Below are positions 611 through 50,925 of a stretch of DNA of 64,000 nt, piece by piece. The position numbers and the translations under genes are program-made. The notes beneath the pieces are model-generated. The model did not search any database. It saw nothing but the letters and a program-made list of their open reading frames with translations, and had not been told where the DNA came from. This DNA is from Vulcanimicrobiota bacterium (GTDB lineage Bacteria; Vulcanimicrobiota; Xenobia; Xenobiales; Xenobiaceae). The stretch spans positions 33,141 through 97,140 of the forward strand of contig CALUQR010000004.1 of NCBI GenBank assembly GCA_944322965.1, written 5' to 3'. Numbering within the stretch: position 1 is the stretch's first letter; every line of letters starts with the position of its first letter.

Positions 611-1510
611 ATAATGCGGAATTCGGAGGGCGCTAGCCGCCGGAACGGCGGCTAGCAATGCGGAATGCTTAATTCGTAATTCGGAATTGGGGAAGTAGGG
701 CGCCGCCTGAGGGCGGCAGCTTAAGTTGCTGCTTGTTAGTGACTTGGCGGATCCGAGAATCGCTTGGCCTATGAGAGAATCGTCGGCTTCGCCAAATCTA
801 ATTCGTAATGCGGAATGCATAGTTCGGAATTAAATGGCTCTTGTTAGTGGATTGGCAAATCCGAAAATAACTTAGCCTATGGGAAAATCGCTGGCAGTTT
901 CACTGCCTTTTTAGCGCTTTGGTTCTGGCGTCCAGATCCTCATTTGTGTTCTGTTACCGGAATGAGGCCTTTAGGGCGTTTGTCCAATGAGACCGCGGCG
1001 CGGGCCCCGCGCCGCACATCCCCAGCGATTTTCTCCCAGCCAAGCCACTCACGGAATCAGCCGGTCATTTCCCCAGCCCCCTCGCCCCTCACCCACTGCC
1101 GAAACCAAGGTTAGCGCCATAACTTTCCCCACTGTCAGGCGCTTCCTCAATTCCGAATTCCGCCCTCCTAATTCCGAATTGCTTTTCCCCCCGCCGCGCC
1201 GCCCCTAATTCCGCATTACGCATTTCTAATTCCCAATTTATCTGGCGGCCGGAGGCTGCCAGATAAGCGCATTCCGAACTCCTAATTACGAATTGTTCCT
1301 CCATCTCGCCCCTCACCCACCGCGAAACTAAAGTTAGAGACACGCCCTCCCTCCTCGCCGCGTCCCCTCAATTACGCATTACGAATTCCTAATTCCGCAT
1401 TACCTTCCCTCGCCTCTAAGTTCTGCTGAAACCAAAGTTAGCGCCAGAACCTTTGTCCTGCGGCAACCCACTACCTCAATTACGCATTCCTAATTCCTAA
1501 TTCCGAATTG
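611..1510. repeat. Modular quasi-palindromic intergenic element, copy E1 (expanded)
   Basis: Heptamer arrays (AATGCGG/AATTCGG/AATTCGT on the left; reverse complements AATTCCG/AATTACG/CATTCCG on the right), hairpin GCTAGCCGCCG-GAA-CGGCGGCTAGC at 632-656, and modules shared with E2-E5. Confidence 0.85.
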
Positions 1511-2698
1511 CCCCGTCTTATACTGGACGTAGGTGATGGCCAGGCTGCCGATGATGAAACAGATGAGGAGCAGGTGTTCCATGGCGGTCATGCCCCAGAG
1601 GGGGGTGAAGGTTCCTTGGATCCCGGAGATGACGGTCATCGCTCCCCAGGCGGTGAGGGTATTGAGCGAGCCAAAGGCCGTCTTTTCGCCTATAGAGGGG
1701 AACATTTGGGGTATAGAGATGACTAGGGCCATAGAGTAGATGCGGTCCAGGGTCATAAAGAGGGCGATAGCGGCGATAGCCCAGTCGAGGTTTAGACCTC
1801 CGTAGATGAAGAGGGGCAGGATGACGAGGGAGAGGATGAGGGCCGAGAGATAGGTGAAGCGGTGGCCTAGGCGTTTAATGATGGAATTAGTGGCAAAATT
1901 AATGAGGCAGTCGGCCAGTCCAATAATGAGCAGGGCCAGGCTGATCTTAGCTAAGTCTAGTCCGTAATGGTAGGGGAACCACAATCCGCACAGGGAGTAG
2001 AATCCGAAGTAGGCCATACGGTTGACGGTGGAGCCTAGGTAATAGGTCCAGGCGTAGGGCGCGGTCAGGGCTTGGCGGTAGGGATTGAGGAAGCGGGCTA
2101 GCCAGGACTCTTGGGGTTTAGGGCTAGGGGGGGTAGCTTCGACCTCCTCCGGGTTGCGGGGGTAGTACCAGGCTAGGATAAGCCCCGAACTAGCGGCCAG
2201 GAGGGCGATAACAGTCACCGGCCAGTGCCAGTTCCATTGGTAGGTCATTAGTCCCGCGGCCGGCACCCCTAAGGCGGTGGCTAGAGGGCGGGCGGACATT
2301 AAGACGGCCAACATGGCGGCGTAGTAGTTTTTAGAAATATCGTGGAAGGTCAAGCGCCACATAATAGAGGCGATGAGTCCGGCCGCCACTCCGGCTAGGG
2401 CCCTACATCCTAGCGCCCAAAGGAAATTGGGGCAGACTACTAGGGCCATTTGGGAGAGGGCTAAGAGCAAGACGCACCCGGCCAGGAAGCAGCGCCGATC
2501 CCAGCTGGCTACGAGGGCCGGTCCCAGGATTAGTCCCACCACGGTTCCGCCCGTACAGAAAGAGATCAGCCACAGCGCGCGCTGGGGGCTGACCTTAAAA
2601 TCTTCGCTCAAGGGCCCGATGAGGGGGGCGATAGAATTATCTATAGAGTTGAAAGCGAAGATGAGGATAAAGGAGAGTATGACCAGGAAGAGTTGCAT
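1490..2698 (-). CDS. MFS transporter (probable exporter)
   Basis: 402 aa with about 12 hydrophobic segments in a 6+6 arrangement; last gene of the four-gene operon. Confidence 0.85.
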   Translation of the reverse strand: MQLFLVILSFILIFAFNSIDNSIAPLIGPLSEDFKVSPQRALWLISFCTGGTVVGLILGPALVASWDRRCFLAGCVLLLALSQMALVVCPNFLWALGCRALAGVAAGLIASIMWRLTFHDISKNYYAAMLAVLMSARPLATALGVPAAGLMTYQWNWHWPVTVIALLAASSGLILAWYYPRNPEEVEATPPSPKPQESWLARFLNPYRQALTAPYAWTYYLGSTVNRMAYFGFYSLCGLWFPYHYGLDLAKISLALLIIGLADCLINFATNSIIKRLGHRFTYLSALILSLVILPLFIYGGLNLDWAIAAIALFMTLDRIYSMALVISIPQMFPSIGEKTAFGSLNTLTAWGAMTVISGIQGTFTPLWGMTAMEHLLLICFIIGSLAITYVQYKTGQFGIRN

Positions 2699-2719
2699 GG
2701 CGCCGCCGTCCGTTCTCCT

Positions 2720-8152: not shown

Positions 8153-9360
8153 ATTCGCCGGCTGGGAAGGCGGTGCGCGCCAAATTGCGGGGGTTATTCT
8201 GGGGTTTCCGCTGGCGCCTACTCTTGATGGTGGCCCTCATCCAAGCTTTGGCCTTCGCTCTAGCTTCCTTTTACGTACTCTCTACTTCCCGCCAGCAGGG
8301 GGAGCGCGACTTAGAACTCAGCTTAGAACAAGCGGTCGACAGTTACTCTTTTGTAGCCACTCGCTCTTATGAGTCTCTGACTGCGCGGGCGGAAGAGCTG
8401 GCGGCCGATCCCAGTTGGCGCGCCCTTTTGGGGTCTAACCCTTTAGACGAGGCTAAAAAACGGGAGTTAAAAGAGCGCACCGTAGCCGATCTAGGTTCAG
8501 TAGCGGGGGATCTCCTCTTAATAGTCGACTCCCAGCGCCACATCCTCTTCCAGGCTTCCCGCCCTCAGAATAAGCAGTTAGATAGCCAGCGCCCTACCCT
8601 AACTGAGGTCGACTTCGCCCAGGGTCCCTTATTGCTCCCTACGGGTACGGAGAGTAACCCTCAGCGTCTAGAATTTAGTTTTTTAGAGCCCCTCTTTAAG
8701 CTCAATGAGGTTAGTCGCGGCTTTATGCTCTATCCCGATCCGCGCCATGGCGATCTCATCGCCGTAGTGGGGGTCGCTATCGACAAAGAGCGCCCTCAAG
8801 ACGGGGCTTTAGTCTTGGGGAAGCGTTTAGACGACAGTTCCCTCATCAAGTTGGCTCAAGGTATGCCGCGGGGGATCGTCTTAATTACGACTGGCGATCG
8901 CCTCTCTTTAGTCTACGATAACCGCTCCGGCACGCGCCCCACTCCTACTATGGCCGCGGCCTTAGAGGAGATGCTTAAAGGCTGGGATCCGGCCCGCGGT
9001 GAGAAGGCTTTACAGACGGGGAGCTTAGGTTTGAGCTTCCATTTAGACGACGCTCCCTTAGCGGGATGCCAATGGAAAGCGGCGGTCGTCAACTTAGGGA
9101 ATCTGCGCAACTCCGGGGCTTTAGGTTATCTCATCTTCTTAGCCGACCCCCAGAGCTTAACTACCCAATTAGACTTATTGACTCGCGGCCTCATCACTTG
9201 CGGCCTGCTCAGCCTAGTCGTCCAGATTATCCTCCTCTTCTTCTGCGCCCCCCTAGCCACCCGCTTCGCCCGTCCCTACTGGCAACTAGGCGTCCTCGGC
9301 CTAGTCGAACACCACGCTCAGAAGATTAATTCGGAATTAGGAATTCGTAATTCGGAGTGA
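8149..9360 (+). CDS. Membrane sensor-like protein (TM, Cache-like domain, TM) lacking an output domain; possibly truncated
   Basis: ATGA overlap with the receiver gene; two TM helices around a large extracytoplasmic region; C-terminus runs into repeat E2 (INSELGIRNSE*). Confidence 0.6.
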   Translation: MNSPAGKAVRAKLRGLFWGFRWRLLLMVALIQALAFALASFYVLSTSRQQGERDLELSLEQAVDSYSFVATRSYESLTARAEELAADPSWRALLGSNPLDEAKKRELKERTVADLGSVAGDLLLIVDSQRHILFQASRPQNKQLDSQRPTLTEVDFAQGPLLLPTGTESNPQRLEFSFLEPLFKLNEVSRGFMLYPDPRHGDLIAVVGVAIDKERPQDGALVLGKRLDDSSLIKLAQGMPRGIVLITTGDRLSLVYDNRSGTRPTPTMAAALEEMLKGWDPARGEKALQTGSLGLSFHLDDAPLAGCQWKAAVVNLGNLRNSGALGYLIFLADPQSLTTQLDLLTRGLITCGLLSLVVQIILLFFCAPLATRFARPYWQLGVLGLVEHHAQKINSELGIRNSE

Positions 9361-9905
9361 GCTAGCCGCCGGGACAGCGGCTTAGCAATTCGGAATGCGG
9401 AATTCGTAATTCGGAATTAAGAAGCGCTTGTTAATGGCTTGGCAGATTTGGGAATAACTTGGCATACGGGAGAATCGAGCTTGCCGCCGGAGGCGGCAAT
9501 GCGGAATGCTTAATTCGGAATAGAGTGGCTGTTGTTAGTAGCTTGGCGGATCTGGAAGTAGCTTAGTCTAGGGGAGAATTGCACTGAGTGCTCGAGCGCC
9601 CAATTCCTAGATTTGTGCTCTGTTTTTAGAACACTTGTCCCATTGGACCGTGCGGGCTACGCCCGCACATCAGAACGATTTTCTCCTCTAGCCAAGGGGC
9701 CCCTCGGAATCTGTCAGTCATTCCCCCGAGCTACCTAGCCCATCACCCATTGCCGAAACAAAAGTTTCCGCCAGAACCTTTGTCCTGCGGCAACCCAATT
9801 ATGCATTATGCACTCCGAATTACGCATTGCCGCCTCCAGGCGGCTATCCGCATTCCGAATTCCTAATTCCGCATTGTTCTGGCGGCAACATAAGTCTTGC
9901 GGCAA
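9326..9905. repeat. Modular element copy E2
   Basis: Heptamer arrays, hairpin at 9361-9386, two A modules (~9426, ~9528), C module (~9676), reverse heptamers at ~9797-9875. Confidence 0.85.
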
Positions 9906-9974
9906 CCAAGGTTACGGTTATATACTCTCCTTAGTGATAACTTAACTTCGATACGCATAAAAGGGGGGGGCAGA

Positions 9975-10994
9975 TTGAGTCACGATTCTAGTTACAAAAA
10001 GTTTTTCAGTCGCGTCGATATGGTTGAATCGTTAGTGCGCGACTTTATTTCTAAAGATTTAGCTGATGAGCTAGACTTTAAGACTCTGAAGCTCATGCCT
10101 ACCGTTTTCCAAAAGCATGGGCAGACAGAACGGCGTGGCGATCTTATTTGGCGACTCAAATGGCGAGATGGTAACCCTTGCCTTTTGGCTATACTCTTAG
10201 AGTTTCAGAGTACTATCGATAAGAAGATGCTCTGTCGGTTAATGGAATATGCCACTCTATTCTTAGAGCAAACATTGGACGATGATAAGAACAAAGGGCT
10301 GACTTTGCCGCAAATTTTACCCATAGTCCTTTACAATGGGGCAAAGCCTTGGAGTGCGCCTCGCGTTTATGGCGAGTTATCGGAGCGCGAAAGACTGGCT
10401 TATGAGCGCGGCATTTGGGATTTCAAATACCATTTAATTGACATTCGCCATCTAGAAGAATCTTTGGTTGATAAGGCTAAGGGTATCAGCGCCTGGATCT
10501 TTCGCTTTGAGCGGGCGGCCAACGTCCAGGAGATGGAGAGGCTCTGGAGAGTGATGTTCCGCGCTCTAAAGAGTCCAGCTTATGAAAATTTGCGCCAAGA
10601 GATTATAATCTGGCTAGAGACTTGCGTCTTGCCGGTCCGTAAAATCGCGGGCGCTAAAATAGTTGTAAAACGTTTGAAGGAGGAAGAGAAGATGACCGTA
10701 GTTACCGCCGAAATGGAAGACTGGACCCTCCCCTACATCAACCAAGGAATAAGACAAGGCCGCACCGAAGGTGAGGCACGCGGTCGCGCTGAGGGGAGAC
10801 TTGAAGGTAAGCTCGAGGGGGAGCGCATAGGAGAGTTACGCGGTAGAACTGAGGGAATTGCAGAGAAAGCGGCTCAAGTTATCCGCCAAATGATCGCTGA
10901 GGGATTTGAGGACAATCTGATCGCCAGATTAGTCAGCGTCCCCTTATCTGAAGTAAAAAAACTACGCATTGCTAGCCGCCGGGACGGCGGTTAG
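9975..10994 (+). CDS. Rpn family (transposase_31 / PD-(D/E)XK) recombination-promoting nuclease
   Basis: HDSSYK..F, RGDLIW, LLEFQS, PIVLYNG..PW motifs and C-terminal G(R/K)xEG repeats; lower GC; TTG start after a G-rich RBS. Confidence 0.9.
   Translation: MSHDSSYKKFFSRVDMVESLVRDFISKDLADELDFKTLKLMPTVFQKHGQTERRGDLIWRLKWRDGNPCLLAILLEFQSTIDKKMLCRLMEYATLFLEQTLDDDKNKGLTLPQILPIVLYNGAKPWSAPRVYGELSERERLAYERGIWDFKYHLIDIRHLEESLVDKAKGISAWIFRFERAANVQEMERLWRVMFRALKSPAYENLRQEIIIWLETCVLPVRKIAGAKIVVKRLKEEEKMTVVTAEMEDWTLPYINQGIRQGRTEGEARGRAEGRLEGKLEGERIGELRGRTEGIAEKAAQVIRQMIAEGFEDNLIARLVSVPLSEVKKLRIASRRDGG
10692..10994 (+). CDS. Putative intragenic small protein (RpnS-like antitoxin), in frame with Rpn
   Basis: AAGGAGG at 10677-10683, 8 nt before in-frame ATG 10692; 100 aa covering the GxxEG repeats. 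Confidence 0.55.
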   Translation: MTVVTAEMEDWTLPYINQGIRQGRTEGEARGRAEGRLEGKLEGERIGELRGRTEGIAEKAAQVIRQMIAEGFEDNLIARLVSVPLSEVKKLRIASRRDGG

Positions 10995-11531
10995 CAATGC
11001 GGAATGCGGAGTTCGTAATTAAATGGCGCTTGTTAGTGGCTTAGCAGATTTGGGAATAACTTGGCATACGGGAGAATCGCACTGGACACTTCTACGCCCC
11101 TTTTTTAGTTTGTGCTTTATTACTTGACTGAGGCCTTTAGGACGCTTGTCTAATTGAACCACACACCCGGCGCCCGCACACCAAGACGATTTTCTCCCCG
11201 GCCAAGTTACCTACGGAACTAGCCAGCAACTGACTCACTGTGTTCTCGCCCCTGACTCACAGCCGGAACAAAAGTTAAAGCAACAACCTCCACTCCCGCC
11301 TGCCTCCTCAATTACGCATTCCGAATTACGAACTCCGCATTATCCTCCCCCCAGCCGCGGCACACCGGAGCGATTTTCTCCCCAGACAAGCTACCTCCGG
11401 AACCAGTCGGTCATTGCCTCAAGCCCTCTTGCCCCTCACCCCACCACTGAAACTAAAGTTAGAGCCATAACCTCTCCACCGCCGACACCCCCAATTACGC
11501 ATTCCGAATTCCTAATTACGAATTCCGCATT
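10962..11531. repeat. Modular element copy E3
   Basis: Hairpin at 10971-10995, A module ~11028, central module ~11135, two C/D modules (~11186, ~11371), reverse heptamers. Confidence 0.85.
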
Positions 11532-11580
11532 GCCTTTTTTTGCCGCCCCAGCCCGGAGGGCTGGGGCGGCAAAAAAAGGC
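11532..11580. repeat. Perfect 23-bp inverted repeat (3-nt loop)
   Basis: GCCTTTTTTTGCCGCCCCAGCCC-GGA-GGGCTGGGGCGGCAAAAAAAGGC. Confidence 0.9.
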
Positions 11581-25371: not shown

Positions 25372-28206
25372 TTAGAGCGGGGCGAACTCATCCTCTCCCA
25401 TTTTAAAGACCCCTTCGTCCTCGCCTACGTTGGAGGGCGGATTCGTATCCCGGGGCTCGCCCACTTCGGGTAAAGGCTCGCTCTGGGCGGGCGGCGCCGC
25501 TTTGGCGGGGGCGGATTTAGCCCCTCCCTGGGGAGCGGCTTTACTATTGTTGCCCTTCTTACTCGGAGCGGGGGTCATGAGCGGATAGAGCGCCCCTTCG
25601 CGCATATTGCCCCCCTCGGAGGCTTTAGCCTTGCCCCGATCTTCGGAGCCCCACATACCGTCGCCCCGCCGCCCATCTTGGCGCGAGCCCCAAACTTGCC
25701 CTTCCTCTTCGAAGTTGGGCGCGGCGGGCTGGTAGTTACCCGGAATGGAGGGGGGCAGAGGTTGACGCCGCTCCTGGGTGCGCTGGAAGACGAAGCCGAT
25801 AAAGATTAAGAGGGCGCTCATGGCGATGACAAAGCTCAAGACCACATACTTGCCCGGCCCCCCGAACCAGCGCCAAAAGCGGCCCCAAGAGGAGTTATCT
25901 TCCTCCTCTTCCTTCTCTTTGACCATGCGCGCGTAAGTCTCGGAGGGGGTCAAGTGGCCCGTATTGCTCTTAATAAAGTCGTCTAAGCTCATAGAGCGCA
26001 GGTCGGGACGGCGCGAGACGGTATCCATCCAGGAGCCGCCCAAACTCCCGCCCAGCTGCTGGTGAGAGCCTATAGAGTCCTGACCGAAGGCGGGGCGCTG
26101 TTCCCAGGGGTAGACCCCGCCCCCCTGGGGGGCTTGGTAGGGGTTGCCCGTGGGCATAGGGGCGCTGGGCGGCAGGGAGCTATGGCCCAAACTAGTCCCC
26201 CCAAAGCGCGAAGAGCTACCCTGGGTAGCCGCCAAACTTTGGGCGATCTCCGGCGGCAAGGTAGCGGAGAGCCCCTCCCCGGGGGCTCGATTGGGCGGGA
26301 AATAGGGGGCCTGAGCTGAACCGCTGCTCTGCCCTAAGCCGGTAGCCCCTAAACTGGTAGAACCGAGCCCCGTAGCCCCTAGACTAGTCCCTCCCAACCC
26401 GGGCGCAGCCCCCCCTTGGGGGCGCTGTTTGGTCAATTGGGGAGGGGATAAACGCTGATTGGAGCGAGGTACGGCGGCGGTAGGCGTAGGGGTCGAACGG
26501 GGTACGGCGGCGGTGGGCGTGGGGGCGGAGCGGGGCACGGCGGCGGTGGGCGTGGGGGCGGAGCGGGGCACGGGCGCGGTCGGGGTATCGGTGCGCGGAA
26601 CCCCAGAATTGATACCCGGTACTCCGGCGCCTACGCGGTGGACCTGGGTAGCCGGACCGTTGGGGATGCTCAGCGGCGTCCCAGAGCCGGGGCGCACTTC
26701 ACCCCGGGCGTTGACCCCCGTCCCGGCGGCAAAGATCCCCTCCTGAGAGACTTGGGCCCCCACTCCGATAGAGGGTTTTAAGCCCAACTTGGGAGGACCG
26801 GAAGGGCGCGAACCCGAGGGCTGTAAGCCCAAGCGGGGCGGCCCAGAGGGGCGGCCAGACGCGGAAGGTAAGTTTTCTAAATTGGTGCGGTGAAGTTGGG
26901 TTGCATCCTTATCTCCCGACTGTGGCGCCATACCTATTCCTCCAGTGTGATAAGTGGCTCTAGGGAGCCCCCCTGGGGGGGCTGCTGTCCTTTTTCCAGC
27001 TTGAGCCTCCCCCTCCTGCGCTCTAGGGGCGTAAGGATCGCCCTCCCGCCTACTTTTGGGCGCGGGCAAGCGCCGCGGTTCCGATAAGGCCCGCGCCGGC
27101 GGCGCCGGTCGCCAACCGGTGGGGCGAGGCGCCCCTCCGGGACGGGGCGGCCCCGGGGGACGGGTTCCACCCTGGGGCCTAGGAGCCCCGCCTGGCCGCG
27201 GCGCTCCCCCGGGGCGCGGGATCCGCCCCGCCCCTAAGACGTCGGAACCGTAACTGACCCCGGGGCGGTTGCGCCACTGAATAGGCGGCTGCAGCTCGCC
27301 TTTAGAGGCCGGTCGATAGCGGCGGGGCTTCGGTTTGCGCCGTTGGGCGGGTAAGGAATCTAAGAGTTCGGAAAGGCGCGGATGTTCTCCAGCTGCAGCC
27401 TGAGCGTTAATGGCCCAGCCCCCCGGGGCTGGCTCCATCAGTTTTTTTTTACTGCGCTTGGGCGGGGGCAAGGGTAGAGACTTAGGCGTAGCGGCCGCAG
27501 GCGAGGCGGGAGCTTGAGGGGCGGGCGCAGGTCCAGCTGGCGGGGTTGGCTGGCGAGGGACCATTCTGGCCCCAGGGATAGGGGCTTGGAGGCGGGAGGG
27601 GGCGGCCGGACGCGCTTGGCGAGCGCTAGTAGCGCGCACTCGGGCGTTGAGATTAGGCTGAACCTCGCCCTCCAAAAAGACTTGCATGGTATGGGCTAAG
27701 CGCTCCATGCGCTCGCTATTGAGCCCCTCTAAACCTGGGGCCAAGAGGGTCAAACCGAAGAGGGTAGCTGAGGGCGGGGCCTTGCGCTCCGGGGGACGGG
27801 CCGCCGGGGGGTCGACCTCTGCGCCCGCAGGCTGAGGAGCGCTCCCCTCCCCTACGCTCGTGGCCCCCAACAGACTCTTTTGGCGCTCACTCTCGCGGCG
27901 GGCCGTAATCCGAGCCCGCAAGCTATTGACCGGAGTCATAGGCAACTCCGCCGACTCGTCTAAGGGCAAGACGTTAGTCTTGGGAGCGGCGGCTAAAGGC
28001 GGCGTCGGAGGGGCGGGCGGAGTAGTAGAAGGAGGCGGCGGATTCTGTCCGCCTAGACTCCCCGCCCCTAGGCGCAAATTCTTAGGCCCCGCGTCCTCTG
28101 TGGCGGGCGCCATTACGGGGGTAGGCAAAGGCGGAGGCAGGGTGGGCTTAACCCACTCGCCCGGCTGGGCGCCGCTCTCTCGCTTAGCCACCGCTCCACC
28201 TCCCAA
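25372..28206 (-). CDS. Very Pro/Gly-rich, largely disordered protein with one C-proximal TM helix
   Basis: 944-codon open frame; TM 'YVVLSFVIAMSALLIFIGFVF'; several internal peptide repeats; start uncertain. Confidence 0.7.
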   Translation of the reverse strand: MGGGAVAKRESGAQPGEWVKPTLPPPLPTPVMAPATEDAGPKNLRLGAGSLGGQNPPPPSTTPPAPPTPPLAAAPKTNVLPLDESAELPMTPVNSLRARITARRESERQKSLLGATSVGEGSAPQPAGAEVDPPAARPPERKAPPSATLFGLTLLAPGLEGLNSERMERLAHTMQVFLEGEVQPNLNARVRATSARQARPAAPSRLQAPIPGARMVPRQPTPPAGPAPAPQAPASPAAATPKSLPLPPPKRSKKKLMEPAPGGWAINAQAAAGEHPRLSELLDSLPAQRRKPKPRRYRPASKGELQPPIQWRNRPGVSYGSDVLGAGRIPRPGGAPRPGGAPRPQGGTRPPGPPRPGGAPRPTGWRPAPPARALSEPRRLPAPKSRREGDPYAPRAQEGEAQAGKRTAAPPGGLPRATYHTGGIGMAPQSGDKDATQLHRTNLENLPSASGRPSGPPRLGLQPSGSRPSGPPKLGLKPSIGVGAQVSQEGIFAAGTGVNARGEVRPGSGTPLSIPNGPATQVHRVGAGVPGINSGVPRTDTPTAPVPRSAPTPTAAVPRSAPTPTAAVPRSTPTPTAAVPRSNQRLSPPQLTKQRPQGGAAPGLGGTSLGATGLGSTSLGATGLGQSSGSAQAPYFPPNRAPGEGLSATLPPEIAQSLAATQGSSSRFGGTSLGHSSLPPSAPMPTGNPYQAPQGGGVYPWEQRPAFGQDSIGSHQQLGGSLGGSWMDTVSRRPDLRSMSLDDFIKSNTGHLTPSETYARMVKEKEEEEDNSSWGRFWRWFGGPGKYVVLSFVIAMSALLIFIGFVFQRTQERRQPLPPSIPGNYQPAAPNFEEEGQVWGSRQDGRRGDGMWGSEDRGKAKASEGGNMREGALYPLMTPAPSKKGNNSKAAPQGGAKSAPAKAAPPAQSEPLPEVGEPRDTNPPSNVGEDEGVFKMGEDEFAPL
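26461..26587 (-). repeat. 33-bp coding tandem repeat (PTPTAAVPRSA x ~4)
   Basis: Visible in both DNA and protein. Confidence 0.85.
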
Positions 28207-29792: not shown

Positions 29793-32789
29793 ATGTCTGA
29801 CAGAATGACCCCCCTGCCCTTCGCCAAATTGATGGGCCAGATCCTCAATGAGTACGCCCAGCGGGGCACGGTCTTTGGGATCGACCACCCCTTCTGCCCC
29901 CAGGAGAAGAGGTTAGAGTTTTATGGGGAGTATTTGGAGACCCCCTTCGGCCCCGCCGCCGGCCCCCACACCCAGTTGAGCCAGAATATCGTGGCCGCTT
30001 ACTTCGCCGGTTGCCGCTTCTTCGAGCTCAAGACGGTCCAGACCTTAGACGGTGAGGATCTGCCCGTAGCTAAGCCCTGCATCGCCGCCCAAGACGAGTG
30101 CTATAACGTGGAGTGGTCCACCGAGTTGCGAGTCCAAGAGGCCTTTGAAGAGTACGTCAAGGCCTGGTGGGCCCTCAAGTTGCTGAGCGTCCAATTTGGC
30201 TGGGGCGATCCTAACGGATTCGTCTTCAATATGAGCGTCGGTTACGATTACCATGGGATCTCCTCCCCCAAGATCGACGCCTTTATCGAAGGTTTAAAAG
30301 ACGCCTCCCAGACCCCCATCTGGAAAGAGTGCCAAAACTGGGCCTTAGATAACCTGGAGACCCTCTCCAACTTAGATGGCGAATACGTGCGCCACATTAA
30401 CCCCCGCGTCTGCAACTCTATCACCCTCTCCACCTTACACGGCTGCCCGCCCCAGGAGATCGAGCGCATCGCCAGCTACCTGCTGGAGAGTAAAAAGCTC
30501 AATACCTTCGTCAAGTGCAACCCCACCCTCTTAGGTTACGAGTTCGCCCGCCAGACCTTAGATCGTATGGGTTACGATTATATCCAGTTTGACGACCACC
30601 ACTTTAAAGCCGATCTGCAATGGGCCCAGGCGGTACCCATGTTCCAGCGCCTGCTCAGCTTAGCTCAGGCTCAGGGTCTCAACTTCGGCCTCAAATTGAC
30701 CAATACGTTCCCCGTAGATATCGCCCACCAAGAGCTGCCCGGCTCGGAGATGTATATGAGCGGCCGCTCCCTCTACCCCTTGACGACGGAGCTGGCCCGG
30801 CGCATCAGCCAGACCTTTGACGGCGAGTTGCGCATTTCGTACTCGGGCGGAGCCGACGCCTTCAATATCGCCCCCCTCTTTGCGGCTAATATTTGGCCCA
30901 TCACTCTGGCTACGACCCTCTTAAAGCCGGGCGGCTACCAGCGCTGCACCCAGATCGCCGAGACCTTAGTGCAGATGGATTACCAGCCCTTCAGCGGCGT
31001 CAAGGTAGGTTTAGTAGAGGAGCTGGCCCACAACGCCCGCACCGACCTGCGCAACCAAAAGCCCCTCAAGCCCACCCCCCAGCGCAAGATGGAGAAGGCC
31101 ATCCCCCGCTTCAACTGCTTTACCGCCCCCTGCAGCCACGGCTGTCCCATCAACCAAGATATTCCTGAATACGTCCATCTAGTGGGCTTAGGGCGCTACG
31201 CCGAGGCCCTGCGCCTCATTATGGCCCGCAACCCGCTGCCCTTCACTACGGGTACCATCTGCCCCCACAACTGCCAGACGAAATGTACTCGCAACTTCTA
31301 TGAGGATGCGGTCCACATCCGCCAGAGCAAGTTGTTGGCGGCCACTAAGGCCTATGAGACCATCTTGGAGGAGGTACGCCAGCGCCAGCAGAGCTTAAAA
31401 CCGGATCCTAAGGCCCCGCGGGTAGCCGTCGTAGGCGGCGGCCCGGCCGGTATGGCGGCGGCCTACTTCTTGGCCCGCCAGAACTGCCAGGTAGAGCTCT
31501 GGGAGAAGAGTTCCCGCCTGGGCGGCATCGTGCGCTGGGTGATCCCCGAGTTCCGCATTCCTAGCGCCAATTTAGATCGCGACGTAGCCCTCTTAGAGGC
31601 CAGCGGTTGCCAGATCAAATTGGATAGCCCCGCCCCTTCCCTGGCCGAGTTGCGCGCTTTAGGTTATACCCACATCGTCTACGCCATAGGCGCCACCCGT
31701 CCGGGCCAGCTCCACTTAGAGCAGGGCCAGGCCCAGAACGTCTTAGAGTTCTTAGCCCAGGCTAAGGCCGGTCAAGCGACTAATTACGGTCCCCAGGTGA
31801 TCGTGGTAGGCGGCGGCAATACGGCTATGGACGCCGCTCGGGCCGCCAAACGCTTAGCGGGCGTCGAGAAGGTGACCGTCCTCTACCGGCGCACGCGGCG
31901 CAATATGCCCGCCGATGAGGAAGAGTTAGAGCTGGCCCTCCAGGAAGGGGTGGAGTTTGCCGAGCTGCTCAGTCCCTTAAGCTGGAGCGAGGGCCAACTC
32001 CTCTGCCAAAAGATGGTCTTGGGCGCCCCCGACGCCTCCGGTCGCCAGCGCCCCGAGCCCACCGAAGAGCGGGTAACTTTGGCCTGCGACCAACTGATCG
32101 CCGCCGTAGGCGAGAAGGTAGATAGCGCTTACTTCCAAGCCCAAGGCTTAGAGTTAAACGCCCAAGGTTACGCCGCCCTGGACCAGAACTTAGAGAGTCT
32201 GAGCCAAGAGAAGGTCTTTGTCATTGGCGACGCTCAAAGCGGTCCGGCGACGGTAGTCGAGGGGATCGCCGACGCCCTGAAGGTAGCCCAAGCTATCGTC
32301 GGCCCTTACGCCTATACAATCCCCACCGCCGCCTACAGCTCGGCGGCCGAAGTTAGCGCCAAGCGCGGCCTCCTGCAGTACTACTTCCAGGCGGCCAAAG
32401 AGAAGGAGCGCTGCTTGAGCTGCCAGACGGTCTGCGAGAACTGCCTCCAGTCCTGTCCCAACCGAGCTTACATGTCTATCCCCGTGGAGGGTATCGCCCA
32501 GCCGGTGCTCATCCACTTCGACCAGATGTGCAACTATTGCGGCAACTGCACCGTCTTCTGTCCTTACGAGGGCGATCCTTACCGCTCTAAGTTGAGCTTA
32601 TTCGCCACCTTAGAGGAGTTCCAAGGGAGCGATCTGCCGGGCTTCTATCGCCTGAGCCCCCGCCAGTACTGGATTAGGCTGGGCGGCCCCGGCAGCGAGC
32701 GCCAGCTGGACTTAGATAAGGGCCAGTGCTGTCCCGACTGTCACAAGCTCTTGGAGACCTTAGAAGCTAAGTATACCTGGATCTTCTAA
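29793..32789 (+). CDS. ygfK: Fe-S flavoprotein oxidoreductase YgfK
   Basis: GPAAGPHTQL, ELKTVQ, YNVEWSTEL, GGGPAG, GGGNTAMD motifs and C-terminal ferredoxin Cys clusters. Confidence 0.92.
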   Translation: MSDRMTPLPFAKLMGQILNEYAQRGTVFGIDHPFCPQEKRLEFYGEYLETPFGPAAGPHTQLSQNIVAAYFAGCRFFELKTVQTLDGEDLPVAKPCIAAQDECYNVEWSTELRVQEAFEEYVKAWWALKLLSVQFGWGDPNGFVFNMSVGYDYHGISSPKIDAFIEGLKDASQTPIWKECQNWALDNLETLSNLDGEYVRHINPRVCNSITLSTLHGCPPQEIERIASYLLESKKLNTFVKCNPTLLGYEFARQTLDRMGYDYIQFDDHHFKADLQWAQAVPMFQRLLSLAQAQGLNFGLKLTNTFPVDIAHQELPGSEMYMSGRSLYPLTTELARRISQTFDGELRISYSGGADAFNIAPLFAANIWPITLATTLLKPGGYQRCTQIAETLVQMDYQPFSGVKVGLVEELAHNARTDLRNQKPLKPTPQRKMEKAIPRFNCFTAPCSHGCPINQDIPEYVHLVGLGRYAEALRLIMARNPLPFTTGTICPHNCQTKCTRNFYEDAVHIRQSKLLAATKAYETILEEVRQRQQSLKPDPKAPRVAVVGGGPAGMAAAYFLARQNCQVELWEKSSRLGGIVRWVIPEFRIPSANLDRDVALLEASGCQIKLDSPAPSLAELRALGYTHIVYAIGATRPGQLHLEQGQAQNVLEFLAQAKAGQATNYGPQVIVVGGGNTAMDAARAAKRLAGVEKVTVLYRRTRRNMPADEEELELALQEGVEFAELLSPLSWSEGQLLCQKMVLGAPDASGRQRPEPTEERVTLACDQLIAAVGEKVDSAYFQAQGLELNAQGYAALDQNLESLSQEKVFVIGDAQSGPATVVEGIADALKVAQAIVGPYAYTIPTAAYSSAAEVSAKRGLLQYYFQAAKEKERCLSCQTVCENCLQSCPNRAYMSIPVEGIAQPVLIHFDQMCNYCGNCTVFCPYEGDPYRSKLSLFATLEEFQGSDLPGFYRLSPRQYWIRLGGPGSERQLDLDKGQCCPDCHKLLETLEAKYTWIF

Positions 32790-41990: not shown

Positions 41991-42731
41991 CTAGCCGTGG
42001 GAGATAATATAACCGTTCTGGTAGACGGAATCGACCTCCGCCTGGCCGTCGGCATCGTCGCCATGACCGGTATGGAGCACATCCTGACCCCAACCGCCGC
42101 GCAAAAGATCGGGCGCCTTATCGTCCGCCGGAGCGCGCAGACCGCCATAGATCATATCGTCGCCGCCGCCGCCATAGAGCTGGTCGGCCCCTAAACCGCC
42201 GATGAGCGTATCGGAACCGCCAATCTCGCGCAAGATCTGACGGGGCCGGAAGTCGCCAAAGATGAGATCGCGGCCGCCATTGCCGGCCACGAAGTCGTTG
42301 CCCATGCCGCCCACTAAGATGTCGTCGCCCGCGCCGCCGCGGATATTATCGTTACCCGTCCCGGCCGCCACGTGTAAAGGCAAGTCCACCTTGCCCTTAG
42401 TGGAAACCTTGTCGTCGCCCGCGCCGGTGGCGATGATGAGACCCTTAGCCTCCTCGGAAGAGAAGACGTGGCGCTGGCCGTTCATATCGACTACCAGATT
42501 GTCGCCCTCTTGGCTAACGGCCACCTGGTCGCCGCCGGGAGTACCTACCAAAACGGTGAGATCTTTCTCTTTGCAAGCCCCTCTGTCTATCAGACTGTCC
42601 GCCACATCGTGGACGCCGACTCCGAAGACGTCCAAGCCCTTCAGCGCCGCCTGCCCCTGCTCAACGGTCATATCACAGACCGGCAGCTCCACAGGCGCGC
42701 TAAACATACTGGGAAGGGAAGAAATATTCAT
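41991..42731 (-). CDS. RTX/hemolysin-type calcium-binding repeat protein
   Basis: Multiple GGxGxDxL/I nonapeptides; no Sec signal. Confidence 0.8.
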   Translation of the reverse strand: MNISSLPSMFSAPVELPVCDMTVEQGQAALKGLDVFGVGVHDVADSLIDRGACKEKDLTVLVGTPGGDQVAVSQEGDNLVVDMNGQRHVFSSEEAKGLIIATGAGDDKVSTKGKVDLPLHVAAGTGNDNIRGGAGDDILVGGMGNDFVAGNGGRDLIFGDFRPRQILREIGGSDTLIGGLGADQLYGGGGDDMIYGGLRAPADDKAPDLLRGGWGQDVLHTGHGDDADGQAEVDSVYQNGYIISHG

Positions 42732-42845: not shown

Positions 42846-43234
42846 ATCTAATTCGGAATGCGTAATTCGGAATTAAAGGGCGCTTGTTAATGGCTTGGCG
42901 GATCCGAAAATAGCTAGTCTTCTGGAAGAATCGCTGGCAGTTTCACTGCCTTCTTGGGACTTTGGTTTTGCGCTTTGATTCGGACGTCCAGATCTTTATT
43001 TGTGTCCTGTTCTCTGATAAAGGTCTTTAGAGTGCTTGTCCAATTGGACCGCGGCGCGCCCCGCGCCGCACATCTCTTACGATTTTCTCCCAAGCCAAGT
43101 GCCTATCGGAATCAGCAAGCCATTAAGTCCCCGCCACCTCGCCTCTAAGTCACCGCCAAAGCTAACGTTAAAGCCATAACCTCACCCCCAGCCGCGCACC
43201 CCCAATTACGAATTACGAATTCCTAATTCCGAAT
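42846..43234. repeat. Modular element copy E4 (minimal, single-module form)
   Basis: Forward heptamers, A (42882), GCAGTTTCACTGC, central module, C (43080), D, reverse heptamers. Confidence 0.85.
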
Positions 43235-43294
43235 TTTTCTCTTTGCAACACTCTTTGCCGCCTAAAGCGGCAAAGAGTGTTGCAAAGAGAAAAA
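43234..43294. repeat. Perfect 28-bp inverted repeat (5-nt loop)
   Basis: TTTTTCTCTTTGCAACACTCTTTGCCGC-CTAAA-GCGGCAAAGAGTGTTGCAAAGAGAAAAA. Confidence 0.9.
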
Positions 43295-43308
43295 ACTTAT
43301 GCTACAAT
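43280..43308 (+). promoter_or_regulatory. sigma70 promoter of the tRNA operon
   Basis: TTGCAA, 17 bp, TACAAT with extended TG and a GC-rich discriminator, 13 bp before the first tRNA. Confidence 0.8.
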
Positions 43309-43321
43309 GCTCCGGCCAGAG

Positions 43322-43397
43322 GGGCCCATAGCTCAGCGGTTAGAGCAGTTGGCTCATAACTAATTGGTCCCTGGTTCGAACCCAGGTGGGCCCACCA
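43322..43397 (+). tRNA. tRNA with CAT anticodon, most like tRNA-Ile2 (lysidine); elongator Met not excluded
   Basis: Cloverleaf GGGCCCA/TGGGCCC, anticodon loop CTCATAA, TTCGAAC, encoded CCA; lacks initiator features. Confidence 0.9.
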
Positions 43398-43426
43398 CAA
43401 TTGTCTGGCGTAGAAAAAGTAGATGT

Positions 43427-43503
43427 GGCCCGGTGGTCTAGCGGTTTAGGACGCTGGCCTTTCAAGCCGGAGATCGCGGGTTCGATTCCCGTCCGGGCTA
43501 CCA
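43427..43503 (+). tRNA. tRNA-Glu (TTC)
   Basis: Cloverleaf, loop CTTTCAA, TTCGATT, encoded CCA. Confidence 0.95.
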
Positions 43504-43568
43504 ATATACTTAGAGGGGAAGTTCTCTTGTGTTTAGAATTCCTGGTGCAAGCGGACTCCTTCTTTTTT

Positions 43569-43645
43569 GGACGAGTAGCTCAGTTGGTTAGAGCACCTGC
43601 CTTACAAGCAGGGGGTCGGCGGTTCGAGTCCGTTCTCGTCCACCA
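43569..43645 (+). tRNA. tRNA-Val (TAC)
   Basis: GGACGAG/CTCGTCC acceptor stem, loop CTTACAA, encoded CCA. Confidence 0.95.
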
Positions 43646-47829: not shown

Positions 47830-48183
47830 ATGAGTCGCTACAAGGATATGACCACTTGTCCTATCTGTCAGGAGCGCGTTTCCAAAAATGCTCCCATCTG
47901 TCCCCACTGTGGCGAACCTAACCCTGGGGCGGCGGGTTTAAATGACTTCGCTCGCCGCCAAGCGGCTCGCGAGGAGGAGCAGGTCGCCCAACTGGAGGCT
48001 CTGGCGGCCAGTAAAGCCCAGGATTGCAAGTGCTACTATTGCCATAAGAGCATCGTCCCCGACTTTAAGGTCTGTCCCTACTGTGGCAACAAAGTAATTA
48101 AAGGGCCCAGCGATGTCGCCAACTGCTTAGGCGCCGGCTGCGTCATCGTTTTTCTCTTCTTCATTATCGGATCTTGCGCTTAA
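47830..48183 (+). CDS. Double zinc-ribbon protein with C-terminal TM
   Basis: CPIC..CPHC and CYYC..CPYC; AAGGAG RBS. Confidence 0.8.
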   Translation: MSRYKDMTTCPICQERVSKNAPICPHCGEPNPGAAGLNDFARRQAAREEEQVAQLEALAASKAQDCKCYYCHKSIVPDFKVCPYCGNKVIKGPSDVANCLGAGCVIVFLFFIIGSCA

Positions 48184-48200
48184 GGATAGGTTTATAAATT

Positions 48201-49610: not shown

Positions 49611-49663
49611 GTATTAACACCGGGGCCAGCGGCCTGGATCTGCCAAGAGAGGAAATTCTAGCG

Positions 49664-50032
49664 ATGAATATTTTACTCAATCTGATCTGGTTTATCTGTT
49701 GTGGCTTCTGGCAGGGGCTCTCCTGGGTAGTGATAGGGGCCCTTTGGTCTCTTAGCATTGTCGGCCTACCCGTAGGCTACCAGTGTTTTAAGCTGGCCCA
49801 TCTCACCTTCTTCCCCTTCGGCAAGGAGGTAGTCTACCGCGAGGATTCTAGCCTCTCGACGGTAGCTAACGTCTTATGGATCATCTTCGGCGGGCTGCCT
49901 ATCGCCCTAGTAGCTATAACTAACGGCTTAGTAATGTGTTGCACCATCATCGGCATCCCCTTCGGCCTACAATCCTTCAAAATAGCCCGCCTCTCCCTCA
50001 TGCCCTTCGGAGCCTCCATTCCGCATTGCTAG
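49664..50032 (+). CDS. yccF: YccF-domain inner membrane protein
   Basis: Duplicated 'N.IW...G / IVGLPVG.QCFKLA....PFG' repeat. Confidence 0.85.
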   Translation: MNILLNLIWFICCGFWQGLSWVVIGALWSLSIVGLPVGYQCFKLAHLTFFPFGKEVVYREDSSLSTVANVLWIIFGGLPIALVAITNGLVMCCTIIGIPFGLQSFKIARLSLMPFGASIPHC

Positions 50033-50925
50033 CCGCCGGGACGGCGGCTAAGCAATGCGGAATTCGTAATTCGGAATTCGGAATTAAATTTCTGCTTGCT
50101 AGTAGCTTAACAGATCAGGGAATAACTTGGCATATGAAAGAATCGTCGGCAGTTTCACTGCCTTTGTGGCGCTTTGGTGTTGCGCCCAGTTCTTAGTTTT
50201 TGTTCTGTTACTTGATGGAGGTCTTTAGGACGCTTGTCCAATTGGACCGCATCGCGCGCCGCGCTAAGTCTAATTCGGAATGCTTAATGCGTAATGCGGA
50301 ATTAAGTTTCTGCTTGCTAGTGACTTAACAGATCAGGGAATAACTTGGCATATGAAAGAATCGTCGGCAGTTTCACTGCCTTTTTGCGCTTTGGTTCTAG
50401 CATCCAAATCTTCATTTGTGTTCTATTGCCCGAATGAGGTCTTTAGGAAGTTTGTCCAATTGAACCACACACCCGACGCCCGCACACCAAGACGATTTTC
50501 CCTCTAGCTAAGCTACCCCCGGAACCCGCCAGACATTCCCCCAATCGGTCTCGCCCTTAGGTCACCGCCGCAACCAAAGTTAGCGCCACGACCTCCCCTC
50601 CCGCCGCGTCCCCACAAATTCCGAATTACGCACTCCGAATTCCTAATTGCCGCCTCCAGGCGGCAACCCCTAATTCCGAATTGCTCCTTCCCCCAAGCCA
50701 AGCCACCCCCGGAACCTGCCAGACATTCTCCCAATCGGTCTCGCCCTGACCCCATCGCCGAAACAAAAGTTAGAACCACGACCTCCTCTCCCGCCGCGTC
50801 CCCACAAATTCCGAATTCCGCATTCCTAATTCCGAATTAAACTAAAATCGCCGCCGAAACTTCCGTCCCGACGGCAACCTAATTCCTCACTAACCCAATT
50901 ACGAATTCCGAATTCCGCATTGGCC
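50016..50925. repeat. Modular element copy E5 (internal tandem duplications)
   Basis: Hairpin at 50028-50053; near-identical duplicate of the left half (~50070-50250 vs ~50285-50470) and of the right half (~50515-50625 vs ~50705-50820). Confidence 0.88.

What the first reader, a model, noticed from the sequence alone, without database searches (positions are those of the whole stretch)
611..50925. Undescribed family of large modular quasi-palindromic intergenic elements (5 copies in 50 kb)
Seen: copies at 611-1510, 9326-9905, 10962-11531, 42846-43234 and 50016-50925, all in the same orientation with the same module order. The order is: optional GCTAGCCGCCG hairpin; forward 7-mer array; module A (GCTTGTTAGTGG..GATCCG..AATAACTTGGC.TA.GGGAGAATCG); GCAGTTTCACTGC hairpin (E1, E4, E5); CTTTAGGACGCTTGTCCAATTG; GC hairpin; module C (CGATTTTCTCC..GCCAAG..CGGAATC.GCC); module D (CCGAAAC.AAAGTTAG); reverse 7-mer array. 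Module C is a degenerate reverse complement of module A, so the whole unit is a nested inverted repeat. Inference: a non-autonomous mobile element (MITE/REPIN-like) or a long structured RNA. At this density it could be very abundant genome-wide.
Basis: partly seen in the sequence, partly recalled or inferred. Interest (0 to 1): 0.82.

Follow-up and report, generated by a model that had tools for sequence, protein, structure and literature searches.

The report
Heptamer-armed modular repeats coupled to rpn genes
The five stretches are copies of a genome-wide family of large non-coding mirror-image DNA repeats, and in this gut bacterium every one of 23 copies of a nuclease gene (rpn) lies tightly between two such repeats, which offers a possible natural DNA partner for a nuclease family whose target is unknown.

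Summary
All five copies sit at the stated places, in one orientation, with the stated module order.

- **Extent.** The family is genome-wide: about 100 loci, 55.9 kb, 2.3% of a 2.40 Mb genome.
- **Grammar.** (heptamer array + A)n, optional centre, (C + D + reverse heptamer array)m.
- **Not a structured RNA.** The arms are complementary only at the level of the family consensus. There is no covariation and no Rfam match.
- **Not a classical MITE.** There is no target duplication and no near-identical pair of copies.
- **Constrained.** Specific positions are strongly conserved. Orientation follows the replication strand at 52 of 66 loci.
- **Linked to rpn.** The only multi-copy genes in the genome are 23 rpn (YhgA-like PD-(D/E)XK nuclease) genes, and all 23 lie between two repeat loci.
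- **Lineage-restricted.** Repeat cores and this rpn family were both not found in 9 of 9 same-genus genomes searched.
- **The heptamer arms alone are widespread** in metagenomes, there without rpn. Earlier notes of this scan already describe such arrays on other DNA.

Best reading (about 0.5): DNA-level protein-recognition elements that spread by recombination at the arrays, with Rpn as the partner enzyme. Rpn action on them is inferred, not shown.

The parts
611..1510 (+). E1: L7-A, L7-A, centre (M1 hairpin, M2 palindrome), C-D-R7, then extra R7, D-R7, D-R7. It lies between two convergent genes.
   Evidence: flanking ORFs
9326..9905 (+). E2: hairpin, L7-A, small GC hairpin, L7-A, centre, C-D-R7, GC hairpin, R7. 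This is the unit upstream of rpn.
9888..10994 (+). rpn cassette: a leader of about 90 nt that is conserved upstream of all 17 type I copies, plus the CDS (TTG at 9975, stop at 10994; 339 aa). It matches PF04754 Transposase_31/YhgA-like at 91.2 bits (cut-off 21).
10962..11531 (+). E3: hairpin overlapping the rpn stop, L7-A, centre, C-D-R7, C-D-R7. This is the unit downstream of rpn.
11535..11580 (.). Long GC hairpin with an A-run and a T-run directly abutting the right end of E3 (terminator-like by eye; the consensus scan did not list it).
42846..43234 (+). E4, the minimal unit: L7 42850-42875, A 42878-42933, M1 42935-43023, M2 43025-43049 (contains the palindrome GTCCAATTGGAC), C 43079-43125, D 43138-43182, R7 43204-43234.
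43236..43296 (.). Perfect long hairpin directly abutting the right end of E4, just before the tRNA-Met/Glu/Val cluster. It gives only sub-threshold miRNA-hairpin chance matches in Rfam.
50016..50925 (+). E5: hairpin, L7-A-M1-M2 duplicated in tandem (218-nt period), C-D-R7, GC hairpin, C-D-R7, R7. It lies between convergent genes.

Best explanation
The copies are DNA-level elements, not RNA genes. They are an unusually large, elaborated variant of the widespread 'inverted heptamer-array' repeats. The outer arms are inverted arrays of the 7-mer AATKCGK. The inner part consists of inverted A/C modules, a central 12-bp palindrome and a D module.

In this genome the family is coupled to a 23-copy family of rpn genes, which encode a PD-(D/E)XK recombination-promoting nuclease with the RpnL/RpnS layout. 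Each rpn cassette (leader plus CDS) sits exactly between the reverse-type array of one unit and the forward-type array of the next.

Proposed working:
1. The conserved blocks are protein-recognition sites.
2. Rpn, acting on or near the arrays, makes breaks.
3. Recombination or gene conversion between array-bounded sites copies units, half-units and rpn cassettes. This is homing-like copying, not cut-and-paste transposition.
4. The replication fork biases which orientation is made or kept.

Shown: the family, its grammar, the rpn linkage, the lineage co-restriction, the orientation bias, the position-specific conservation, and the absence of covariation and of target duplications.

Inferred: that Rpn binds or cuts these elements, and that copying occurs by recombination.
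For: 1. **Linkage.** All 22 TIGR01784 hits and the 23rd profile hit lie between two repeat loci. By strict regex, a reverse-type array lies 88-214 nt upstream in 19 of 23 and a forward-type array -2 to 134 nt downstream in 22 of 23. By eye, all 22 upstream regions printed carry the array. This holds for both rpn types, although type II is inverted relative to A/C/D.
2. **Only multi-copy gene.** Of 1,758 ORFs of at least 120 aa, the only families with four or more copies are rpn, with 18 and 5 members. No Y1, IS110 or TnpB gene was found, and there is one broken IS256.
3. **Co-restriction.** Neither the cores nor this rpn family at E<=1e-10 was found in 9 of 9 same-genus genomes.
4. **Second lineage.** In G012, from another genus of the family, 6 of 7 Rpn-family loci have a heptamer array within about 160 nt, and one locus read in full shows unit-rpn-unit.
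5. **Constraint.** 79 of 342 columns are at least 95% conserved, against 0.3 expected under uniform decay, at a mean pairwise identity of 71%.
6. **Recombination rather than transposition.**
   - There is no target-duplication signal: 4.04 against 4.08 in permuted pairs.
   - No pair of units exceeds 90.6% identity.
   - Arm copy number is variable.
   - rpn similarity is uncorrelated with flank similarity: Spearman -0.12 and -0.09, n=136.
   - Cassette identity drops at the arrays.
   - Contigs of other samples differ by one heptamer at 616 (2 of 4 runs) and by a 215-nt right-arm block, 1267->1483 (3 of 4 runs).
7. **Orientation.** At 52 of 66 loci the top strand is on the strand with negative GC skew, binomial p = 2.8e-6. 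Gene-strand bias marks that strand as lagging.
8. **Literature.** Kingston et al. 2017 (PMC5350276, passages read) raised the possibility that YhgA-like proteins target specific sites in vivo, like homing endonucleases.
Against: - No experiment or read evidence shows Rpn acting on these elements.
- RpnA of E. coli showed little or no sequence specificity in vitro (PMC5350276).
- Zhong et al. 2023 (PMC10400941, passages read) found no flanking inverted repeats or target duplications around rpn genes in general, and judged a transposase role highly unlikely.
- The arrays occur widely without rpn. None of 80 metagenome loci (417 kb) has an Rpn-like ORF, and the HMM does detect the divergent G012 genes.
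- G003 has arrays with four-helix-bundle genes and at most one weak Rpn hit.
- In another family of the phylum with arrays, rpn and four-helix-bundle genes, none of 6 rpn loci and none of 6 four-helix-bundle loci had AAT-type arrays nearby.
- 80 distant rpn loci show no consistent heptamer arrays.
- rpn lies between units, not inside a unit's loop, so the arrays around it have the opposite polarity to those around a unit.
- No filled/empty site pair was seen. The congeners are too diverged to provide one: secA is 75-79% identical in 8 of 9 congeners, and G003 gave no secA match.
- The loci are clustered, so the binomial test overstates independence.
Confidence: 0.5

Rival explanations
1. Independent selfish repeats with rpn as a hitch-hiker. 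The heptamer-array units spread through some other factor, host or trans-acting. The rpn cassettes, being toxin-antitoxin or antiphage genes, merely use the arrays as landing pads or as portable homology. Rpn plays no part in the units' spread.
For: Arrays are widespread without rpn. In other genomes they accompany four-helix-bundle genes instead: 6 of 80 metagenome loci, and G003. Earlier scan notes describe the same (unchecked notes). rpn similarity is uncoupled from flank similarity. Published work sees Rpn as a toxin-antitoxin defence system and not as a transposase (PMC10400941).
Against: No other multi-copy gene exists in this genome to act as the mobilising factor. Cores and rpn are both missing from all 9 congeners searched. 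The 23 of 23 tight flanking needs a specific reason. The same linkage recurs in G012 with a different Rpn subfamily.
Confidence: 0.25
2. Host-level chromosome sites. The units are polar protein-binding sites used by the cell, for example for nucleoid organisation, or for replication- or segregation-oriented functions. Selection, not mobility, keeps them in place.
For: Position-specific conservation exists without pairing covariation. There is a central perfect palindrome and phased 7-mer arrays. Orientation follows the replichore at 52 of 66 loci. No recent copies are seen.
Against: The units were not found in 9 of 9 same-genus genomes, so they cannot be an essential conserved function. Loci are strongly clustered and often lie at contig ends. 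Module numbers vary between loci and between samples. The tight link to a selfish-type gene family argues the same way.
Confidence: 0.12
3. Long structured RNA, or an RNA-level element such as a terminator, an mRNA stabiliser or an sRNA, encoded by each unit.
For: Both strands of E4 fold better than shuffles as single strands (z -4.42 and -3.25). Units lie preferentially at gene 3' ends: 21 of 49 between convergent genes, and 63 of 98 flanks are 3' ends. The small M1 hairpin shows a compensated pair, A-T in 16 units and G-C in 10. Contigs of RNA libraries cover E2 and E3.
Against: There is no covariation in the long arms: 71.2% paired against 71.5% in shuffles, with 437 of 500 shuffles at least as high. 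Intra-unit complementarity equals inter-unit complementarity. The RNAalifold consensus is -3.15 kcal/mol. There is no Rfam match and no consensus promoter or terminator in the units scanned. Depth over the units in the RNA libraries equals that of neighbouring low-depth genes, and DNA carry-over cannot be excluded. The apparent strand preference of folding disappears once composition is controlled.
Confidence: 0.05
4. A classical MITE family, made of deletion derivatives of a cut-and-paste DDE transposon.
For: The units have terminal inverted arrays, small size, intergenic location and many copies.
Against: There is no target duplication signal. No pair of copies exceeds 90.6% identity. There is no multi-copy transposase, only one broken IS256. 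The arms are arrays of variable length, not fixed ends.
Confidence: 0.05

Closest known systems
REPIN / RAYT systems (REP doublets with a REP-associated Y1 transposase; PMC3116915, PMC3333891, PMC2817692; search listings and abstracts only)
   Same: These are also intergenic palindromic repeats in about 100 or more copies, arranged in composite structures. A nuclease-type gene is itself flanked by the repeats. Distribution is lineage-specific. The repeats persist as diverged copies with no recent burst.
   Different: The enzyme here is a PD-(D/E)XK Rpn protein, not a Y1/HUH protein; none was found. It is present in 23 copies, whereas I recall RAYTs being single-copy. The units are about 370 nt and modular, with tandem 7-mer arms, not 20-40 nt hairpins.
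Rpn (YhgA-like, PF04754) toxin-antitoxin / antiphage nucleases (Kingston 2017, PMC5350276; Zhong 2023, PMC10400941; passages read)
   Same: The gene matches PF04754. It has a variable number of four-residue repeats before a C-terminal helical domain, and an invariant internal Met about a dozen residues before the repeats. This fits the RpnL/RpnS layout described. Copy number varies strongly between related genomes, as that paper reports.
   Different: The published survey found no identifiable flanking inverted repeats. Here every copy is bracketed by inverted heptamer arrays and full repeat units, and the copies are dispersed over at least 15 loci, not confined to tandem arrays.
Inverted heptamer-array cassettes around four-helix-bundle (PF05635, '23S rRNA IVS protein') genes. 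Known to me from earlier notes of this scan. The link to ORF-bearing 23S rRNA intervening sequences is those notes' wording and my recollection, and I did not check it in a paper.
   Same: The same kind of arms is found: forward array, loop, reverse array. The same 7-mer AATKCGK occurs in metagenome contigs of 31-70% GC. Cargo-less copies exist.
   Different: In G000 the loop holds a conserved non-coding A/M/C/D core of about 300 nt in place of a gene or a short spacer. No PF05635 gene is present. The associated gene (rpn) lies between units, not in the loop.
Modular mosaic repeats such as BIMEs of E. coli and BOX elements of pneumococci (recalled; abstracts on BIMEs seen)
   Same: These are built from a few module types whose number varies from locus to locus. 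They are intergenic, often at 3' ends of genes.
   Different: The module sequences are unrelated, the units are much larger, the arms are tandem 7-mers, and there is a replication-strand orientation bias and a linked multi-copy nuclease gene.

Membership tests
MITE | Terminal inverted repeats | tested here: met
   Forward and reverse heptamer arrays lie at the two ends. 75.9% of cells pair in the array helix.
MITE | Target-site duplication flanking each copy | tested here: not met
   At 51 loci, the longest word shared between the two boundary windows is 4.04, against 4.08 +/- 0.14 in permuted pairs. Duplications of 2-3 bp would escape this test.
MITE | A related autonomous element that encodes a transposase and shares the ends | tested here: inconclusive
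   rpn cassettes are bounded by the same arrays, but in the opposite polarity. Rpn is not a demonstrated transposase. No multi-copy DDE, Y1 or IS110 gene was found.
MITE | Recent copies and insertion polymorphism | tested here: not met
   Maximum pairwise identity is 90.6% and the mean is 71%. Only module-number variants were seen in other samples, and no empty site.
REPIN/RAYT | Associated Y1 (HUH) RAYT gene | tested here: not met
   PF01797 gave no match in the 96%-complete genome.
REPIN/RAYT | The associated gene is flanked by the repeats | tested here: met
   This holds for rpn in place of RAYT: 23 of 23.
Rpn / YhgA-like nuclease (PF04754), for the linked gene | Profile match above the curated cut-off | tested here: met
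   PF04754 scores 91.2 bits against a cut-off of 21. TIGR01784 scores 40.7 bits, below its cut-off of 52.1.
Rpn / YhgA-like nuclease (PF04754), for the linked gene | RpnL/RpnS layout: variable four-residue repeats shortly after an internal start, then a helical C-terminal domain | tested here: met
   Alignment of 18 of the 23 paralogs shows an invariant internal Met, repeat blocks of variable number and a conserved C-terminal segment, matching the description in PMC10400941. Internal translation itself was not testable.
Rpn / YhgA-like nuclease (PF04754), for the linked gene | Endonuclease activity | not testable with these tools
   Invariant acidic and E-x-Q-type residues are present in the N-terminal domain. 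That these are the catalytic residues is recalled, not tested.
Rfam structured RNA | Match to a curated covariance model | tested here: not met
   At gathering threshold only 3 tRNAs matched in the window. Permissive scans of E4 and E5 gave only sub-threshold miRNA-hairpin chance matches outside the unit cores.
Rfam structured RNA | Covariation supporting the helices | tested here: not met
Inverted heptamer-array cassette / ORF-bearing IVS type | Forward array, loop, reverse array of a tandem 7-mer | tested here: met
Inverted heptamer-array cassette / ORF-bearing IVS type | PF05635 four-helix-bundle gene in the loop | tested here: not met
   There is no PF05635 match in G000. The loops hold the non-coding A/M/C/D core.

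The most novel reading that the evidence does not exclude
In this lineage the Rpn nucleases are still in their native, site-directed state. They recognise the heptamer arrays and/or the unit core, cut there, and drive homing-like, recombination-based copying of their own cassettes and of the gene-less units.

That would make this the first repeat/enzyme partnership built on an Rpn (PD-(D/E)XK) protein. It would also give the natural DNA target that the E. coli Rpn work could not find. The replication-strand bias would then point to action on fork-associated DNA.
Probability: 0.3. Interest if true: 0.85.

Novelty: new variant of a known kind. Interest (0 to 1): 0.7.

Why it matters
Rpn/YhgA-like genes occur in dozens of phyla. 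They were long annotated as 'putative transposases' and are now seen as toxin-antitoxin defence genes. Their natural DNA substrate is unknown, and the published survey found no flanking repeats.

This genome has 23 intact copies, each in the same repeat setting, and a second genus shows the same linkage. Together they form a concrete system in which binding, cutting and copying can be tested with defined DNA.

Separately, the finding ties a large modular repeat family to the widespread AATKCGK heptamer arrays. It also shows that such repeats can be orientation-biased with respect to replication, and constrained at specific positions without any RNA-type covariation.

Tried and rejected
- **RNA structure.** RNAalifold on 40 units gave only short local helices at -3.15 kcal/mol.
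- **Strand preference of folding.** As RNA, the bottom strand is more stable in 51 of 52 units. This proved to be a composition effect once dinucleotide shuffles were used.
- **Empty sites in congeners.** Same-genus genomes are only 75-79% identical in secA, and the upstream neighbour is not syntenic, so no filled/empty comparison was possible.
- **Reads.**
  - All four runs laid were contigs that break at the repeats.
  - They gave no empty-site joint and no usable evidence of transcription.
  - Many listed joints between E1 and E3 are cross-matches between repeat copies.
- **Block duplication of unit-rpn-unit.** Rejected: there is no correlation between rpn similarity and flank similarity, and the two flanks of one locus are no more alike (76.6%) than flanks of different loci (77.2%).
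- **A second linked gene family.** Other genes lying between units are diverse: RTX-repeat proteins, peptidases, an RNase D-like exonuclease, an MmeI-like fragment, radical SAM, CsgG.
- **A free-standing copy of the rpn leader.** None exists; it occurs only upstream of the 17 type I genes.
- **General coupling of arrays and rpn.** Not found in 80 metagenome loci, in 80 distant rpn loci, or in 6 rpn loci of another family of the phylum.
- **Solved structures.** No relative by sequence.
- **Plasmid and phage collections.** No match to E4.
- **Redundant call.** One search repeated the family-level result and added nothing.
- **Literature.**
  - Searches on Rpn plus repeats, on heptanucleotide repeats, and on the four-helix-bundle family listed no paper describing these elements.
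  - Supplementary files were not open to me, so SI Fig. S1 of PMC10400941, on rpn neighbourhoods, was not seen.
Full report
**What is in the window**

Each copy starts with tandem 7-mers of the type AATKCGK (L7). Next comes module A. A centre may follow, made of M1, often the GCAGTTTCACTGC hairpin, and M2, which contains the perfect palindrome GTCCAATTGGAC, plus a GC hairpin. Then come module C, module D, and the reverse-complement 7-mers (R7).

E4 (42846-43234) is the minimal unit. E1, E2, E3 and E5 carry extra left (L7-A) or right (C-D-R7 or D-R7) half-units, and E5 holds a 218-nt tandem duplication. All five are on the + strand.

The gene between E2 and E3 (CDS 9975-10994) matches PF04754, Transposase_31/YhgA-like, at 91.2 bits against a cut-off of 21. 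It is an rpn gene.

**The family in the genome**

The window is C4:33141-97140 of a 2,402,764-base assembly of 20 contigs, 57% G+C, 96% complete.

- blastn with E4 finds 295 HSPs in 102 clusters.
- nhmmer finds 210 hits, 52 of them near full length.
- With 30-nt margins the modules cover 55,923 bases, 2.3% of the genome.

The module strings of all loci follow one grammar: (L7 A)n [M1 M2] (C D R7)m.

The 52 full units are only 71% identical on average. The maximum is 90.6%, in one pair, so there is no sign of a recent burst.

Decay is far from uniform. 79 of 342 alignment columns are at least 95% conserved and 40 are at most 55% conserved. A uniform-rate simulation gives 0.3 and 0.005 such columns. 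Specific positions are therefore kept, either by selection or by repeated copying from constrained sources.

**DNA element or RNA**

The two arms are complementary in register: 71.2% of cells pair, against 29-41% when slid by 1-3 columns (on 40 of the 52 units). The pairing is a property of the family consensus only.

- Shuffling the 3' partners among units gives 71.5 +/- 0.3%, and 437 of 500 shuffles are at least as high.
- My own test gives 59.3% Watson-Crick pairs within units against 59.7% between units for A:C, and 67.1% against 67.6% for the arrays.
- RNAalifold finds only short local helices (-3.15 kcal/mol).
- There is no Rfam match at gathering or permissive threshold.
- The consensus scans see no promoter or terminator inside the units examined.

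As single-stranded DNA, both strands of E4 fold better than shuffles (z -4.42 and -3.25). That is expected for any inverted repeat. The apparent advantage of the bottom strand is a composition effect.

Only the small M1 hairpin shows a compensated pair, A-T in 16 units and G-C in 10, and this may be a single inherited event.

I conclude that the long-hairpin RNA reading is not supported. The conserved blocks look like sequence-specific sites on DNA.

**Where the units lie**

Of 49 loci with both neighbours called, 21 lie between convergent genes, 14 and 7 between co-directional genes, and 7 between divergent genes. Of the 98 flanks, 63 are gene 3' ends.

Many ends directly abut long GC hairpins with A- and T-runs, for example the right ends of E3 and E4. 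I did not quantify this.

There is no target-site duplication signal. The longest shared word is 4.04 at the same locus against 4.08 +/- 0.14 in permuted pairs, over 51 loci.

Orientation is not random. At 52 of 66 loci the top strand (L7 to R7) is on the strand with negative GC skew (binomial p = 2.8e-6). Coding density marks the positive-skew strand as the leading one: 57% and 63% of coding bases are co-oriented with it.

Gene orientation alone, at about 60:40, cannot produce a 79% bias. However, the loci are clustered and not independent, and the origin and terminus are not mapped in this draft.

**The link to rpn**

A TIGR01784 search of the genome gave 22 hits, and a profile of the genome's own proteins gave 23. 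Every one lies between two repeat loci.

There are two types:

| Type | Copies | Amino-acid identity | Orientation |
|---|---|---|---|
| I | 18 | mostly 83-94% (two at about 72%) | co-oriented with the units |
| II | 5 | 87-91% to each other, about 35% to type I | inverted relative to A/C/D |

In the gene's own orientation, both types have a reverse-type array upstream and a forward-type array downstream. So it is the arrays, not the A/C/D core, that keep a fixed relation to the gene.

The cassette consists of a leader of about 90 nt plus the CDS. Identity among copies falls sharply at the arrays. The leader occurs nowhere else in the genome.

The proteins show the features that Zhong et al. 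describe for RpnL/RpnS (PMC10400941, passages): a variable number of four-residue repeats, an invariant internal Met shortly before them, and a conserved C-terminal segment.

Among 1,758 ORFs of at least 120 aa, the two rpn groups are the only families with four or more copies at 60% identity or more. No Y1, IS110 or TnpB gene was found, and there is only one broken IS256.

**How the copies relate to each other**

If unit-rpn-unit blocks moved as a whole, the similarity of rpn pairs should predict the similarity of their flanks. It does not: Spearman -0.12 and -0.09 over 136 pairs. The two flanks of one locus are also no more alike than flanks of different loci (76.6% against 77.2%).

Several observations point the same way:

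- arm copy number is variable;
- E5 carries a tandem duplication;
- contigs of 2 of the 4 runs laid carry one extra heptamer at 616, and contigs of 3 of the 4 carry a 215-nt right-arm variant, 1267->1483.

Together these fit exchange and unequal recombination at the arrays better than cut-and-paste transposition.

**Relatives and the wider picture**

The organism occurs in chicken and bird gut metagenomes. Earlier notes of this scan call it a member of Xenobia (unchecked).

In 9 of 9 same-genus genomes searched, neither the repeat cores nor this rpn family at E<=1e-10 was found.

Heptamer arrays occur in 3 of 41 relatives: G000, G003 and G012.

- **G012** belongs to another genus. Rpn-family genes of a different subfamily are flanked by short units made of a forward array, a 26-nt loop and a reverse array. 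Six of 7 loci have an array within about 160 nt, and one locus read in full is unit-rpn-unit.
- **G003** has arrays, three PF05635 four-helix-bundle hits (one beside arrays) and at most one weak Rpn hit.

The 7-mer arrays themselves are widespread. The 80 loci fetched span 31-70% G+C and often show forward array, loop, reverse array.

- None of the 80 (417 kb) has an Rpn-like ORF. The profile used does detect the divergent G012 genes.
- Six of the 80 have a four-helix-bundle gene, five of them beside the arrays.

In the phylum sample, 9 of 401 genomes have exact arrays. In the one other family concerned, rpn (5 of 5 genomes) and PF05635 (4 of 5) are present, but none of 12 sampled loci had AAT-type arrays. 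Eighty distant rpn loci in named genomes show 12-nt repeats inside the genes and no consistent flanking 7-mers, in line with Zhong et al.

After I had found the four-helix-bundle link myself, the scan's earlier notes turned out to describe the same things on other genomes: inverted heptamer arrays around four-helix-bundle genes, around small PD-(D/E)XK genes, and as cargo-less copies, including one with AATTCGG arms. The arms are therefore not a first sighting for this scan.

What is new here is the large conserved A/M/C/D core, the coupling to Rpn, and the replication-strand bias.

**Reading**

The best-supported account is a repeat/enzyme partnership of the REPIN/RAYT kind, built on different parts. 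The units are DNA elements with protein-recognition blocks. Rpn is the only candidate enzyme. Spread is by recombination or gene conversion between array-bounded sites.

The steps from 'linked' to 'acts on' are inferred. The published non-specificity of E. coli RpnA and the wide occurrence of arrays without rpn count against them. I put this reading at about 0.5.

| Rival | Weight |
|---|---|
| Units spread by something else and rpn merely lodges between them | 0.25 |
| Host-level polar binding site | 0.12 |
| Structured RNA | 0.05 |
| Classical MITE | 0.05 |

Noticed in passing
window 43322-43645: A cluster of tRNA-Met, tRNA-Glu and tRNA-Val lies directly downstream of E4 and of the long perfect hairpin at 43236-43296.
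   Followed up: no
whole genome (G000): GAATGC and GCATTC are about three-fold rarer outside the repeats than base composition predicts (166 and 150 against about 540). The repeats, 2.3% of the genome, hold nearly half of all copies. The expectation used base frequencies only, so this may be a dinucleotide or codon effect. A link to restriction avoidance is only a thought.
   Followed up: partly
G000 C2:370125-371044, C9:143-779, C13:126-782: Three repeat loci at or near contig ends share the same 60-nt left flank. They probably sit beside a multi-copy region that broke the assembly.
   Followed up: no
window 10747-10850 (inside rpn): Contigs of all four runs laid replace 102 nt of the four-residue-repeat region by 114 letters, a difference of one 12-nt repeat. 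This may be strain variation or a cross-match to a paralog. The 18 aligned paralogs also differ in repeat number.
   Followed up: partly
G000 C4:133523-134860 (outside the window): A 445-aa ORF holding only the C-terminal half of an MmeI-type enzyme (part of the methyltransferase domain, the TRD and the C domain) lies between two repeat units.
   Followed up: no
G000 C16:11969-13699, C1:625027-626148, C15:2600-3472; window 41991-42731: Several RTX-repeat proteins, one of them with a Peptidase_M91 domain, lie next to or between repeat units.
   Followed up: no
window 26461-26587: A 33-nt tandem repeat of 3.8 copies, G-rich on the + strand, lies inside the long minus-strand ORF 25372-28206.
   Followed up: no
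window 29793-32789: There is a full-length YgfK-type putative selenate reductase subunit (TIGR03315, 1283 bits).
   Followed up: no
L008 (G003:C70), about 1380-1711: In the same-genus genome G003 the heptamer arrays (mixed 7-mers) alternate with a different, roughly 55-nt C-rich module in a tandem array of about 120-nt period. That genome therefore has its own core between the same kind of arms.
   Followed up: partly
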